From: Eledone cirrhosa
Lineage: Eukaryota
Reading direction: 5' to 3'
NCBI GenBank assembly: GCA_964016885.1
Contig: OZ024740.1
Location: 161,572,001 to 161,636,000, forward strand
DNA: 64,000 bases
How positions within the stretch are numbered: position 1 is the first letter of the stretch; each line of letters opens with the position of its first letter. The notes beneath the pieces are model-generated. The model saw only the letters and a program-made list of their open reading frames with translations, was not told the DNA's origin and searched no databases. The position numbers were made by a program, and so were the translations under genes. Below, piece after piece: positions 2,716-48,280 of the stretch.

Positions 2716-2772
<57 letters not shown>

Positions 2773-2809
2773 ATGAAATATAAGAATCAAAGAACTGTTC
2801 AAAACATTG

Positions 2810-2856
2810 TGCTTACAGCTGTTTCCTCCAAACCGAGGTTTGGATTCTTCGGAGCA
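2810..2856 (-). ncRNA. Hammerhead motif, C4 variant (mirror copy)
   Basis: Exact reverse complement of 3113-3159. Confidence 0.65.
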
Positions 2857-3112
2857 ATTTATTAATGAATGGACAGTTATATGACCTCCTTTTCAGCCAA
2901 GAGACATACCGATACATATGCAAATATTGTGGGTCAACATTCATTACAGAATTTAGAGTGGCAGTACACACTTCGAGATTATGAATGTAATCTCGAAGTG
3001 TGTACTGCCACTCTAAATTCTGTAATGAATGTTGACCCACAATATTTGCATATGTATCGGTATGTCTCTTGGCTGAAAAGGAGGTCATATAACTGTCCAT
3101 TCATTAATAAAT

Positions 3113-3159
3113 TGCTCCGAAGAATCCAAACCTCGGTTTGGAGGAAACAGCTGTAAGCA
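3113..3159 (+). ncRNA. Hammerhead motif, C4 variant (family B)
   Basis: TGCT-CCGAAGA-A-TCCAAAC-ctcg-GTTTGGA-G-GAAA-CAGCTG-TA-AGCA: helix I TGCT/AGCA, 7-bp helix II, palindromic helix III. Confidence 0.65.
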
Positions 3160-3371
3160 CAATAATGTTTTGAACAGTTCTTTGATTCTTATATTTCATA
3201 TAACTGCTCTGTAAATTATCTGATGTTTTTACATCGAGCTACTTAACTTACTGGTAATAAGGTAGTAATACATTACTGCCTACCACTATTTAGGGTTTGT
3301 ATAAAAAATACATATAACTGCATAAGGTTTCTGTATTTACATAACCATAAATAGTATAATTAATTAATTAA

Positions 3372-7836: not shown

Positions 7837-8059
7837 AAATAAACTAAGTCCAGATGCATCACTGATTTTTCGTTTTCTTTATAATATATATATATATATG
7901 TATGTATGTATATATACACGCACACATATGTACATACACACACGTATATATATGGCCCTTCCAGTTTCATTTCACATTATATTCATATCTGCGTGTATTT
8001 TAATTATTTAAAAATTATTTTGAAGTGAACATGATTTTTAACAAATATTTTGAAGTGAA

Positions 8060-8088
8060 CGTGACCCAATGGGTCACGGGTAACCTAG
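8060..8088 (+). mobile_element. Putative Helitron 3' terminus
   Basis: Hairpin CGTGACCC-aat-GGGTCACG followed 6 nt later by CTAG. Confidence 0.5.
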
Positions 8089-8526
8089 CATATATATATA
8101 TATATATATATTATGAAGAGAGAAGAAACATTTAGATATAATTAGTAATAAAATGCTCCTAGATTCCTCGACTACGTAGTTTCGTGGCATAAACAAAAAC
8201 AATACATCATAAAGATATAGAGTCCTTGCGAGGTCTGCCGACTTATCAAGAGGATACCTCATTTTACTAGCTTCAAGAACGCGTCTACACGACGTGAGAA
8301 AGAATCCCAAAAGGCGGAGGGGGAGATAGTCACGCGATATAACGGTCGAGAAACAGAGCTAAGCCTCTTATAACCCCGAAGAAAATACCACGGAGGCGGA
8401 GGGGGTATTTATATCGAAGCCGTAGAAGAGGTGGTGAAGGAGGCGAGAAGTATGAGTAATGGCAGCTTTCCAGCAGTCACCACACTTGAAAGATTACTCG
8501 ACCAGAGTGAGTTATGAACAATATAT

Positions 8527-8571
<45 letters not shown>

Positions 8572-9204
8572 TAGGCACGACCAGAAACTTCCTTGGCTGC
8601 AGTGGAAGGCCACGACGTCTGTAGGGCCTTGCCGTGCCCTAGCGCTCCACACCGCTTGCTGTCGCCGCCTTCGTGACCGTTGGGACGATGTTGTCCTCTT
8701 CCACTCACTCCGCCGGGTCCAGGTTTCGCATGCAGGGACAGGCATCGCCTATCTAACACACCGCGGGGTTTCACACTCGTCCGGCTACCCTCAACCTGGT
8801 TCGGCCCGCCAGCGAAGGCGGTTTGCCAGGGTGTGGCCAGTGTCGCATGCTACAGCTTCTTGGGGCCACTGGTGAGAGCTGAGTGTCAGGTGGCACCCAA
8901 TGTAGGACGAGCTGTCCTTACAGAGGTACATGCCCCTCCCTGACACCCCAGTCATATACACACGTATATACATACACATACATATGTACATGTGTATATA
9001 CATATTTACACATTTTTGGATGGCCGTTGTCTCTTATCAGTTCTTCCGCCCTTAGTCAGGTTTTGTTTTTTGTCCTGCAGGGTTTCCAAAATCACCCTCC
9101 TCACCAAGTAAACTTGGTGAGGCTGCCAGTTTAGACGCCGACGACCCGACCATGCGACGGGTTGTACTGGTTTACATGTTACCAGTAGCACTCAAGCGTG
9201 ACCT

Positions 9205-9260
<56 letters not shown>

Positions 9261-9456
9261 TTAGTTAAGCAAAACAAGGCCACAAATTTCATAAGGAAGA
9301 CATTATTAAAACTAATAAATATTTCCAGCTCTGCGCGCCTAACTTCTACATGAACCCAGCCACCTAGCTGGTTTCTACTGCATATTGCACTCTTTAAGAT
9401 TGGTTACTCTTGAACTGTGTACATATATATATATATATATATATAATTCCTTTTAC

Positions 9457-9590
<134 letters not shown>

Positions 9591-9600
9591 ATATATATAT

Positions 9601-10513
9601 ATAAATACATTATCGGAGAAAGCTAATAGCGATACTCCGACCAAATCCCAACTCACTCAACAAACATTAAGAAATAAGTGAGTATATTCCTAATTAAACG
9701 TCGTCGGGGTGCTAACTAATTGTATTGTGTGGAACATTGGCTGTATTATTTCATATGAGATATATCAAATATATCTCTTCCCAGACGGACGTCTCGTTTC
9801 ATTATAAGATTCCTACAAGTTAGGTGAAATTATACCAATTTATGTAGACGCTTGTATAAGATCAACAGATACTTATTCAAGTGGGCTCTTATAATTCTTC
9901 AGTGGGTGCCCAATAACATTAATATTGATTGTCAAATCAACATCAATATTTAGCGATAATCACCATCAGTACTTGGGGTAGCTGTTAGGTTGCTAGCCCA
10001 GCAGTTCTAAAGAAATTCTCATACTGTCTCAAAAAATGAGAAAGGAGAATTATCGCCAAAAAACAATACATGCGCAGGACAACGAATTCTAAAAGGAATT
10101 CAAGCCACGTGCTAGAACTCAATTGGAAATTGAAAAAATAACCATATGTATACATGATTTGATGACACACATATATATTTTCTCGGACAAAATAACAGAA
10201 TGAGATACAAGAAACAATCAATATTCATATATAAAAATAACAAAGAGAGTCAAACCTTATATCCGGAAGTTCATATCCGTTGCTCCAAGAGTAAATAAAT
10301 AAATACATTATCGGAGAAAGCTAATAGCGATACTCCGGCCAAATCCCAACTCACTCAACAAACATTAGGAAATAAATGAGTATATTCCTAATTAAACGTT
10401 CGAGGTGCTAACTAATTGTATTGTGTGGAAAATTGGTTGTATTATTTCATATGACATATCGAATATATCTCTTCCCAGACGGACGTCTCGTTTCATTATA
10501 AGATTCCTACAAG

Positions 10514-16266: not shown

Positions 16267-16640
<374 letters not shown>

Positions 16641-36700: not shown

Positions 36701-37204
36701 AGTTTATGGTTTAAACTTCATAGAAACTGCTTTTCATACCCATGCATCTCTGTCACCTTAATATGCTTTTATACCTGTATTGTATTATGTGATACCTTTG
36801 CCACATTGTGATATATATGCTTAGTACCATTGCTTGTTTCTTACCTGGTAATTCTGTACATGCCTAATACCTCTTTCTATACGTTTGCATATGTAACGCT
36901 AATGCCCTCATTTTGCGAGTAACTTTCTTCTTTAATTCCTCTGTAATTGTTGTATTATTCTTTTATAATCTTTGTCGCATCCACTGATACTGACCACATC
37001 ATCTTCACTCTTTAAATATGACACTGTTAATGACAACACTAATATCTACGTATCTTTACAATTGTTCTGTGGAATAGGAGGTTAATTATATGTCTAAACT
37101 TTGCTAGTGCTGCGATGATTACAAACGAAACTTTGGAAGAAACGATTGTCAGCAATAAAATGTTTTAAACATAGTTTTGACTATTCTGTAATTTCTATAT
37201 ATAT

Positions 37205-37311
<107 letters not shown>

Positions 37312-47004: not shown

Positions 47005-47454
47005 ATATATATGGTAGTTGAAGTAGTGGTGGTGGCGACGATATAACGGAAGTGCAACTTTGAAAAGAAGTCAATTTGAAATTATTTTAAAGTAATCCAA
47101 CTTAATAAGTAATCCAACTTATTTTACAAACGGGATAAAAAAAAACGTACACATAAAGTGCTTGTATTACCTGCCACACAATAATCATATATAAATGAGA
47201 CACACATAACTAACGCATACAATAACTACTACATCTGACTAACAAACTATCCTCTTGCATTATCTATGTTAACTGCCGAATGTATTTTAATTTTGTTTTA
47301 ATTTTGATATTGATCTTGACTTTGAATTTGAATTGCTATACGGAAGTAATATAATATAATATATGTCACTCCACTGTACATCAATATATACATATGTATA
47401 TGTATGTCTCTTGCGTTGGAAAGGAGGTCAATCATGTGTACAAACATTGAAAAA

Positions 47455-47501
47455 TGCTCCGAAGACTCCAAGCCTAGGTTTGGATGAAACAATTGTACGT
47501 T
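47455..47501 (+). ncRNA. Diverged family B hammerhead (C4 retained)
   Basis: TGCT-CCGAAGA-C-TCCAAGCC-ta-GGTTTGGA-T-GAAA-CAATTG-TA; flanks homologous to 3005-3200. Confidence 0.6.
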
Positions 47502-47589
47502 AATAAATGCTTTGAACATAGCTTTGATTCTTGTGAATTCTATATATATATATATATATACACATATATACACATACATATATATATAT

Positions 47590-48280
47590 ATATTATGAAT
47601 TACTGTCGGCTTCTTGCTCACATTAATTTCTCTATTTTCATTTATATTTATACTCGGAATTTTTCCTAGAGTGCTTAAAATTATTTGTGAGTAATCCCGT
47701 TTTTGTTTTTTTTAAACCGCGATAATATTGCTTTATGCTGAACTCCATATCTTTTGTTGAGTTTTTTTCGGAATGTTTTGACTGCTGTTTCTTGTAAACA
47801 GTCATTCGTTTCATTCTGACGTCACTAGCCCTGTTCTCCATGTGTGTTTATTATCTTAATTCCACACGAGGTGTAACTAGCCTGCTTTTAAGTTCCCTTT
47901 CTGGCATATTTTAGCAGTGCCTTTTGGTTATCCTGTTTCAGCTCTACTGATGAACGGTTCCAACCGTGACTAACCCCACTGAAAGGTTTCGTGAAATAGT
48001 CTTTTTAAGACGATATAGAGCATTTGTAGATTTTTCCAAATTGAAGGATAAGTATTTACCCTTAATTTTATTCTGAGTTAAGACTCTATTGCTTTTTTCC
48101 CTGGATTACACAAAATCTGTGGATAAAATTTCTGTCTTGATTTTTTTTAATTGAGATTGAATTATTTTCCCATATCTTACGTTAAATATTTTCCATCTTG
48201 ACGTAATAGTCACTTATATATTATGAATTACTGTTGGCTTCTTGTTCACATTAACTTCTCTATTTTCATTTATATATATA
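47590..48280 (+). mobile_element. (TA)n-flanked element, about 630-bp unit with about 60-bp terminal direct repeats and HHR
   Basis: tattatgaattactgt.ggcttcttg.tcacattaa.ttctctattttcatttata at about 47591 and 48219. Confidence 0.75.
47941..48021 (+). ncRNA. Type-I hammerhead with full helix III and branched helix II
   Basis: GCTCTA-CTGATGA-ACG...CGT-GAAA-TaGTCTT-ttt-AAGACgA-TA-TAGAGC; perfect 6-bp helix I. Confidence 0.8.

What the first reader, a model, noticed from the sequence alone, without database searches (positions are those of the whole stretch)
47360..47545. Diverged family B copy shows C4 is ancestral and helix III covaries as a palindrome
Seen: compared with 3113-3159, this diverged copy keeps CCGAAGA (U4 to C), keeps helix II pairing (TCCAAGCC/GGTTTGGA) and changes helix III from CAGCTG to CAATTG, which is still self-complementary. 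Established: palindromic helix III in minimal HHRs allows cleavage as a double (dimeric) hammerhead. Inference: a naturally attenuated, dimer-dependent C4 hammerhead family.
Basis: partly seen in the sequence, partly recalled or inferred. Interest (0 to 1): 0.78.

Follow-up and report, generated by a model that had tools for sequence, protein, structure and literature searches.

The report
Retrotransposon hammerheads with fixed core mutation
About 8,000 copies of a Penelope-like retrotransposon lineage in this animal genome carry a hammerhead ribozyme motif with C instead of the normally invariant U at core position 4 and a helix III that stays self-complementary through compensatory changes, so it is likely a slowed ribozyme that cuts only as a pair, although its activity is untested.

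Summary
The motif is real. It is the minimal type I hammerhead at the 3' end of a 5'-truncated Hydra-clade Penelope-like element (47150-47540). It is not a decayed copy of 3113: it belongs to its own subfamily, whose best-scoring copies are 97-99% identical. Genome-wide, 7,885 intact copies have C4, 344 have U4 and 195 have G5A. All 13 core positions are invariant across 12 subfamilies, against 25 of 113 flank columns. C4 is ancestral to this clade but derived relative to a U4 sister family and to 26 of 26 published Hydra-clade rows. Helix III takes five subfamily states (AATT, GATT, GATC, AGTT, AGCT), all self-complementary, including a nested AATT>AGTT>AGCT walk through G-U in adjacent bases that can pair only between two copies. 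A natural U4C variant is known from a viroid; I found no C4 family in PLE literature, but could not read one key paper. Cleavage, attenuation and its benefit are inferred. Verdict: new variant of a known kind.

The parts
47150..47540 (+). 5'-truncated 3'-UTR/pseudo-LTR fragment of a Hydra-clade Penelope-like element (subfamily 'B'), ending 43 nt after the predicted cleavage site and followed by (TA)n
   Evidence: BLASTN to L157 and L177, which carry the RT-EN ORF: 88-98% identity over 47150-47546
47455..47458 (+). helix I, 5' strand (TGCT)
   Evidence: partner AGCA in most subfamilies
47459..47465 (+). core box C3-C4-G5-A6-A7-G8-A9, with C at 47460 in place of the canonical U4
   Evidence: C4 in 90 of 98 family copies from a core-blind sample
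47466..47485 (+). helix II: 7 bp plus CTAG loop, closed by a C10.1-U11.1 mismatch instead of G-C
   Evidence: MFE hairpin -8.4 kcal/mol; A-U to G-C double change at one pair in 5 of 16 distinct rows
47486..47497 (+). G12-A13-A14-A15.1, the 8-nt palindrome ACAATTGT (47489-47496) and A17; predicted cleavage after 47497
   Evidence: self-duplex -6.4 kcal/mol versus +2.4 for the 2-bp hairpin
47498..47501 (+). helix I, 3' strand: CGTT here, AGTG or AGTT in the subfamily; the private A>C at 47498 breaks the first pair
   Evidence: 1 of 33 subfamily copies
47541..47593 (+). (TA)n tract at the 3' end, the insertion preference reported for the Hydra clade
   Evidence: PMC8557442 section 11
2978..3364 (+). 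copy of young subfamily 'A' with the C4 hammerhead at 3113-3159 (helix III ACAGCTGT, helix I TGCT/AGCA)
   Evidence: 97% to L031; 41 of 41 listed genomic matches 100% identical over 151 nt
2770..2981 (-). inverted, 5'-truncated arm of the same insertion, hammerhead at 2810-2856
   Evidence: 98.6% to the direct arm
37070..37205 (+). third, decayed insertion from an older U7/GATT subfamily (motif 37108-37154): C4 kept, C3>G, helix II damaged

Best explanation
This is the minimal type I hammerhead motif at the 3' end of a Hydra-clade Penelope-like retrotransposon lineage in which core position 4 is fixed as C, and it likely works as a slow self-cleaver that needs two copies paired through the 8-nt helix III palindrome. 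Shown: the host element, the fixation of C4, the invariance of the other core bases and the compensatory changes in helices II and III. Inferred: in tandem elements (about 4.1 kb period, L031) or between two transcripts, two motifs swap helix III strands and form a double hammerhead, probably helped by the element's own protein. C4, with the lost G10.1-C11.1 pair and a 4-bp helix I, would lower the rate. Slow cutting would be tolerated or favoured because the element's 3' end lies about 43 nt beyond the scissile bond, so an RNA cut at its 3' motif would lose the end that genomic copies retain. My odds by step: host element 0.97; RNA fold under selection 0.9; pairing between copies 0.75; residual site-specific cleavage 0.65; slowing is itself selected 0.35. 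The copy at 47455 is likely inactive.
For: Host: L031 holds a 4,146-bp tandem with the motif upstream and downstream of an RT-EN ORF showing RWR, DKT, YRDD, CxCX5C, CxxC and CxH, the Hydra-clade marks of PMC8557442. Fixation: 7,885 C4, 344 U4, 195 G5A; C4 lies in a CpG, so reversion to U is one common transition, yet 12 of 12 subfamily majorities keep C while the flank majorities of subfamilies A and B are 49-89% identical to the others. Ribozyme-like pattern: 13 of 13 core positions invariant versus 25 of 113 flank columns; N7 varies (A/U), N17 is A or C and never G in 98 copies. Dimer: subfamily states AATT, GATT, AGTT, AGCT and GATC (55 of the first 100 of 138 copies with non-T at the fourth base) are all self-complementary; copies with non-G second and non-T third base total 78 and are scattered; the inner pair joins adjacent bases, impossible within one strand. 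Folding: the double hammerhead lies 0-2.6 kcal/mol above the best tandem fold with helix II hairpins held in 13 of 14 natural sequences (4.4 in one U4 copy). Literature: PLE hammerheads are weak and dimeric (PMC4209133); an anole PLE hammerhead cuts only with protein and uncut RNA is the main insertion substrate (PMC11167929); U4C lowers activity in vitro but supports viroid infectivity (PMC3088659).
Against: No activity was measured and no RNA data were available. In a pairwise mutational scan of a type III hammerhead, all single and double mutants in the CUGA turn were low except the C3-G8 swap (PMC9901934), so C4 on top of a 10.1-11.1 mismatch may leave almost no activity. Subfamily B spread (2,040 candidates) with a helix I of two Watson-Crick pairs plus wobbles, and its palindromic helix II gives an 18-bp self-duplex (-32.2 kcal/mol) that beats the double hammerhead (-20 to -21.6) when unconstrained. 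Most neighbouring copies are inverted (14 of 21 pairs within 10 kb diverge, 2 converge, 5 are direct), which puts the motifs on opposite strands. The outer-pair series GATC-GATT-AATT could partly reflect CpG decay and its direction is unresolved. Only four subfamily-level steps support covariation; my hand estimate of their all being compatible by chance is about 0.02-0.1. The invariance contrast ignores shared ancestry, and a conserved AT-rich block also lies just 3' of the motif (16 of 45 columns). Two same-locus pairs share G5A, so core-dead templates may be copied, or arms converted.
Confidence: 0.55

Rival explanations
1. C4 is compensated: with its unusual 10.1-11.1 junction, its long helix II and the element's protein, the motif cuts as well as or better than the U4 form, so it is a re-tuned core and not an attenuated one.
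For: C4 and the loss of G10.1-C11.1 go together: the U4 sister families have G10.1 with C or U, the C4 clade has A-G 42, U-A 23, C-A 14, C-U 9 and rarer pairs among 99 matches. No U4 lineage has taken over although the reversion is a CpG transition. Protein assistance is documented for one PLE hammerhead.
Against: The 10.1-11.1 identity varies freely within the clade, unlike a specific compensating contact; published Hydra motifs often have U-U there with U4. No second-site rescue of CUGA-turn mutants was seen in a type III scan. In old U7 subfamilies U4 copies outnumber G5A about 3 to 1 (hand tallies; 12 vs 2 of the first 100), so U4 is tolerated.
Confidence: 0.2
2. The motif no longer cleaves; the hammerhead-like fold and palindrome are kept as a dimerisation or protein-binding element for reverse transcription.
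For: Three departures from the consensus at once (C4, 10.1-11.1, weak helix I in subfamily B); catalytic mutants do not affect insertion in vitro for an anole PLE; genomic copies keep the uncut motif and tail; paired G5A copies exist.
Against: G5, A6, G8, A9, G12, A13, A14, A15.1 and U16.1 are invariant in 12 of 12 subfamilies, and N17 avoids G: the pattern expected of catalysis. G5A is under-represented relative to U4 in old subfamilies.
Confidence: 0.15
3. C4 is held by an overlapping constraint unrelated to the ribozyme (for instance a promoter element in the pseudo-LTR DNA), or is a mildly harmful change that hitch-hiked with one successful ancestor.
For: C4 arose once on the RT tree (clade support 98/91); pseudo-LTRs typically hold promoters (PMC6765202); U4 copies are scattered through old lineages.
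Against: Hitch-hiking does not explain persistence at a CpG across lineages whose flanks diverged to about 50-70% identity. G-T-tolerant intermediates in helices II and III point to RNA, not DNA, constraint, though this concerns the helices and not position 4.
Confidence: 0.1

Closest known systems
Minimal and short-helix-III type I hammerheads in pseudo-LTRs of Penelope-like elements (PMC4209133; Lunse et al., PMC5785218, title only)
   Same: Position in the pseudo-LTR, type I topology, 4-bp helix I, long (7-8 bp) helix II, palindromic helix III, mostly solo or inverted copies, presumed dimeric action.
   Different: Published consensus is CUGANGAH G...C GAAAN; 44 of 44 rows I saw in supplementary Fig. 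S3 have U4. The core variant described there is U3-A8. Here C4 is fixed and G10.1-C11.1 is lost.
Hydra clade of C-terminal EN+ Penelope-like elements (PMC8557442)
   Same: RW(K/R), DKT, CxCX5C linker, CxxC and CxH in the endonuclease, (TA)n at the ends, hammerhead near the 3' end with palindromic helix III.
   Different: 26 of 26 Hydra-clade rows in File S2 begin ctga. Those elements are mostly under 3 kb; this one has a 4.1-kb period with a 3' UTR of about 1.4 kb and a low-complexity stretch between RT and endonuclease.
Natural U4C viroid hammerhead variant (cited in PMC3088659; original PMC147498 not held)
   Same: Same substitution; reported to reduce activity considerably in vitro while allowing infectivity.
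   Different: A variant of a viroid hammerhead, where PMC3088659 suggests tertiary contacts offset core changes; here it is the fixed state of thousands of copies of a minimal motif in which I did not look for or find such contacts.
Anole Poseidon PLE hammerhead (PMC11167929)
   Same: Reverse transcription starts downstream of the motif and uncut RNA is the main substrate; fits the 43-nt tail here.
   Different: Different PLE clade; activity there was measured and needs the protein, here it is not measured.

Membership tests
Hammerhead ribozyme (type I, minimal) | Core boxes CUGANGA and GAAA with NUH cleavage triplet | tested here: not met
   All met except U4, which is C in 7,885 of 8,229 intact C4 or U4 copies; the triplet is GUA, GUC or GUU. 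Filed as a variant.
Hammerhead ribozyme (type I, minimal) | C3-G8 pair and catalytic G8, G12 conserved | tested here: met
   Invariant in 12 of 12 subfamily majorities from a core-blind sample
Hammerhead ribozyme (type I, minimal) | Three-way junction with helices I, II, III supported by covariation | tested here: met
   97.5% of 240 cells paired, 3 pairs with double changes, slid controls 25-40% (rows hand-picked, related, and partly selected by a pattern that fixes some paired bases). Helix I is broken in the 47455 copy.
Hammerhead ribozyme (type I, minimal) | G10.1-C11.1 closing pair | tested here: not met
   0 of 99 matches have G-C; A-G, U-A, C-A and C-U dominate
Hammerhead ribozyme (type I, minimal) | Rfam hammerhead model match | tested here: not met
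   No hammerhead family among 5 hits at E<=10 for 47380-47540
Hammerhead ribozyme (type I, minimal) | Site-specific self-cleavage | not testable with these tools
   No assay; no RNA holder listed
Dimeric (double) hammerhead | Self-complementary helix III too short to fold within one copy | tested here: met
   Five of five subfamily states are self-complementary; duplex -3.4 to -11.1 kcal/mol versus +2.4 for the hairpin
Dimeric (double) hammerhead | Cleavage depends on a second copy | not testable with these tools
   needs kinetics
Hydra-clade Penelope-like element | Single ORF, RT with C-terminal GIY-YIG-type endonuclease; RWK, DKT, CxCX5C, CxxC, CxH | tested here: met
   RWR, DKT, YRDD, CNCRANRTC, CNLC, CQH in L031; subfamily B ORF 77% identical over 619 aa (L177). 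Pfam gave no hit for the 649-aa frame.
Hydra-clade Penelope-like element | Partial tandem pseudo-LTR structure, inverted 5'-truncated arms, (TA)n targets | tested here: met
   4,146-bp tandem; 14 of 21 close pairs are divergent inverted; a TA run lies within 110 nt downstream in 46 of 98 copies
Hydra-clade Penelope-like element | Phylogenetic placement among named Hydra families | not tested
   The tree used unnamed database proteins only
Non-LTR retrozyme | Short non-coding tandem repeats, each with a type I hammerhead | tested here: not met
   The motif flanks a coding RT-EN element and occurs as truncated solo or inverted copies

The most novel reading that the evidence does not exclude
An animal retrotransposon lineage has kept a substitution in the 'invariant' hammerhead uridine turn through at least a dozen successive subfamilies because a canonical, faster ribozyme would cut off the reverse-transcription start; the C4 motif is a selected, dimer-gated slow ribozyme, and such families are invisible to CUGANGA descriptors and to Rfam, so more may exist.
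Probability: 0.3. Interest if true: 0.75.

Novelty: new variant of a known kind. Interest (0 to 1): 0.52.

Why it matters
What hammerheads do for Penelope-like elements is unsettled: they are nearly universal in them, weak in vitro, and dispensable for insertion in the one reconstituted system. This clade supplies a natural series for that question: C4 masters, natural U4 revertants and G5A nulls in identical backgrounds, five helix III palindromes of different strength and subfamilies with strong or weak helix I. The AATT>AGTT>AGCT walk is evolutionary evidence for pairing between copies, which so far rests mainly on in vitro constructs in the papers I read. It also shows that standard descriptors miss a family of about 8,000-10,000 motifs in one genome. 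It is not a new ribozyme class, and without kinetics the attenuation story remains a hypothesis.

Tried and rejected
Anti-misfolding idea (C4 stops the core strand pairing with helix III or helix I): in 7 natural pairs differing only at position 4, U4 widened the gap to the competing fold in 1 (4.1 kcal/mol) and changed it by 0 to -0.3 in 6; rejected as a general cause. A separate U4 sub-lineage in the old subfamilies: U4 copies (deliberately oversampled, 20 extra regions) are interspersed with C4 copies, and the loop type that looked U4-specific is mostly C4; not supported. Rooting the pseudo-LTR tree with U4 sister flanks was unreliable, so the direction of the outer-pair changes is open. 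Expression and cleavage ends: no RNA holder listed; three runs of unknown type, all contigs, were laid and cannot show ends. Relatives in other species: 474 proteins at E<=1e-20, best 33-46% identical; the tool that returns DNA around such proteins was closed, and a metagenome scan found no relative, so whether C4 occurs in other species is open. One search used a badly designed pattern and is uninformative. Rfam: no hammerhead among the 150 of 341 hits listed for the window or the 5 for the locus. Earlier scan notes: none. Literature searches for a C4 family in PLEs showed none in their listings; Lunse et al. (PMC5785218) and Ambros and Flores (PMC147498) are not held, and file 1 of the PMC4209133 supplement could not be searched; these could bear on novelty.

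Full report
Observation. The window reads TGCT CCGAAGA C TCCAAGCC TA GGTTTGGA T GAAA CAATTG TA CGTT at 47455-47501 and TGCT CCGAAGA A TCCAAACC TC GGTTTGGA G GAAA CAGCTG TA AGCA at 3113-3159. A second copy of the latter lies on the minus strand at 2810-2856, in an inverted arm, and a decayed third insertion at 37070-37205. The topology is that of a type I hammerhead with C at position 4. Rfam does not detect it.

Two subfamilies, not a decayed copy. The window lies in a 3.0-Gb genome. The 3113 sequence has 1,078 candidates, and all 41 listed matches are 100% identical. The 47455 sequence has 2,040 candidates; the other 39 full-length matches listed are 97-99% identical. These are best-scoring matches, not random ones. 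The two sequences are 77.6% identical to each other. In 33 copies of the second subfamily the four bases after the cleavage site are AGTG 20, AGTT 12 and CGTT 1, the last being the window's copy: its helix I is broken by a private change, and the subfamily's helix I is weak.

Host element. L031 holds a 4,146-bp direct tandem, with the motif about 260 nt upstream of the reading frame and about 1.4 kb downstream of its stop. The protein has RWR, DKT, YRDD, CNCRANRTC, CNLC and CQH, matching the description of the Hydra clade of Penelope-like elements (PMC8557442, section 11). The finding's subfamily has its own ORF, 77% identical over 619 aa (L177). The window fragment covers 47150-47540, ends 43 nt after the predicted scissile bond and runs into (TA)n. 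Of 21 neighbouring copies within 10 kb, 14 are divergent inverted pairs, 2 convergent and 5 direct.

Is C4 the family state? A pattern that fixes only helix I and part of helix II gives 9,774 matches, control 10. I fetched 99 of the first 100; one is a chance match; of 98 family copies 90 have C4 and 8 U4. Genome-wide, with the rest of the core intact: C4 7,885, U4 344, G5A 195. I grouped 86 of the 98 copies into 12 subfamilies by a flank-only tree. All 13 core positions (C3, C4, G5, A6, G8, A9, G12, A13, A14, A15.1, C15.2, G16.2, U16.1) are invariant among the 12 majorities, against 25 of 113 flank columns; N7, N17, loop II and pair 10.1-11.1 vary. The subfamilies are related, so this is a contrast and not a probability. 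G10.1-C11.1 is absent from 99 of 99.

Ancestral or derived? On an RT tree the eight C4-clade rows form one group (98/91), sister to a U4 family of the same genome (95/98; L180, 59% identical). Other U4 families share the TGCT/AGCA helix I and have G10.1. All 26 Hydra-clade rows in File S2 of PMC8557442 and all 44 rows I saw in Fig. S3 of PMC4209133 have U4. So C4 is ancestral to this clade and derived within the wider family. C4-G5 is a CpG. In the A7 subfamilies U4 and G5A are about equally frequent (about 124 and 117, from hand tallies of N7 in the first 100 rows), as symmetrical decay predicts. In the U7 subfamilies, which look older, U4 exceeds G5A about threefold (about 220 and 64 of 1,933; 12 and 2 of the first 100). 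This suggests that U4 revertants were tolerated as templates and G5A less so, yet no U4 lineage took over.

Helix III. With A15.1 and U16.1 the segment is an 8-nt palindrome. In the 99 sampled matches it reads CAATTG 52, CAGCTG 17, CGATTG 13, CAGTTG 10 and others 7. Of 138 copies with a non-T fourth base, 55 of the first 100 are GATC, mostly sharing helix II loop types, 18 are AATC and scattered (hand tally). Copies with a non-G second and non-T third base number 78 genome-wide and are scattered over subfamilies. All five subfamily states are self-complementary when G-U is allowed. This inner pair joins adjacent bases and cannot form within one strand; G-U tolerance points to RNA rather than DNA. 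Self-duplex energies are -6.4 (AATT), -11.1 (AGCT), -5.8 (GATT), -3.4 (AGTT) and -10.0 (GATC) kcal/mol, against -1.0 to +0.3 for the rare non-complementary words and +2.4 for the 2-bp hairpin. A pair count on 18 hand-picked rows (16 distinct) gives 97.5% paired cells and three pairs with double changes, one in helix II and two in helix III. Caveats: only four steps; the outer series could be helped by CpG decay; its direction is unresolved.

Folding. With helix II hairpins held, the double hammerhead lies within 0-2.6 kcal/mol of the best tandem fold in 13 of 14 natural sequences and 4.4 above it in one U4 copy. Unconstrained, the finding's subfamily prefers an 18-bp duplex of its palindromic helix II (-32.2 versus -20 to -21.6). 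C4 does not generally protect against misfolding (1 of 7 pairs).

Mechanism. Published work shows that metazoan PLE hammerheads cut weakly and as multimers (PMC4209133; abstract, results and discussion read), that an anole PLE hammerhead cuts only with the element's protein while uncut RNA is the main insertion substrate (PMC11167929; passages), that U4C lowers activity in vitro but permits viroid infectivity (PMC3088659; passages and section 8), and that CUGA-turn mutants other than the C3-G8 swap are low in a type III hammerhead (PMC9901934; passages). I infer a slow, dimer-dependent, probably protein-assisted cleaver, whose slowness would spare the 43-nt 3' tail. The last step is the weakest: that slowness is selected, and not just tolerated, rests on the persistence of C4 at a CpG.

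Comparison and novelty. It works like, and sits where, the known PLE hammerheads do; it fails two consensus features (U4, G10.1-C11.1), so I file it as a variant. Nine literature searches listed no C4 family in PLEs. I saw only the titles of Lunse et al. and Ambros and Flores (reference lists); the former describes a large variant set and might include C4. Also seen: PMC8557442 passages, section 11 and supplement parts 1-2 of 59; PMC6765202 and PMC6155905 passages; bioRxiv 10.64898/2026.07.22.740005 part 1 of 5. Hammerhead numbering and the roles of G8 and G12 are established knowledge (G8 and G12 also). Subfamily labels A and B are mine.

Verdict. Activity is untested. Interest 0.52.

Noticed in passing
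window 53169 (+), 54129 (+), 62185 (+), 26180 (-) (position of C3): Four further hammerhead-like motifs of other families, all with U4 (helix III CTAG, CCATTGG, CG and GAAC); similar motifs recur in other loci, so these are repeat families.
   Followed up: partly
L039:487 (+), L060:1270 (+), L071:1076 (+): A repeat family with the U3-A8 core covariation (TTGAAAA) and a CCGG palindrome in helix III, the variant described from Schistosoma.
   Followed up: no
window 47495-47500; subfamily B loci L036-L064: In subfamily B the cleavage site reads GTAAGT, a consensus 5' splice-site hexamer (recalled), created by the change that weakens helix I; PLE pseudo-LTRs can hold introns. No RNA data to test it.
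   Followed up: no
window 47467-47484: Helix II of subfamily B is itself an 18-nt near-palindrome and can form a second, stronger duplex between copies.
   Followed up: partly
G000:C2:48747510/48748393 and C2:302329371/302332809: Both copies of a close pair share the G5A change, so core-dead RNA was copied or the arms were converted; several pairs likewise share U4.
   Followed up: no
L023:1993-2864, L048:1-393, L057:2-616, L068:2549-2968, L097:2711-3040: More distant relatives of the endonuclease (37-44% identical) show several other Hydra-like families in this genome; their hammerheads were not located.
   Followed up: no
L128:879 (+): One copy of an unrelated hammerhead family carries C4 where its relative in L029 has U4; single copy, probably private.
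   Followed up: no
window 16340-16567: Long inverted repeat around CT/TA/GA microsatellites; scores below threshold against miRNA models, probably a foldback repeat.
   Followed up: no
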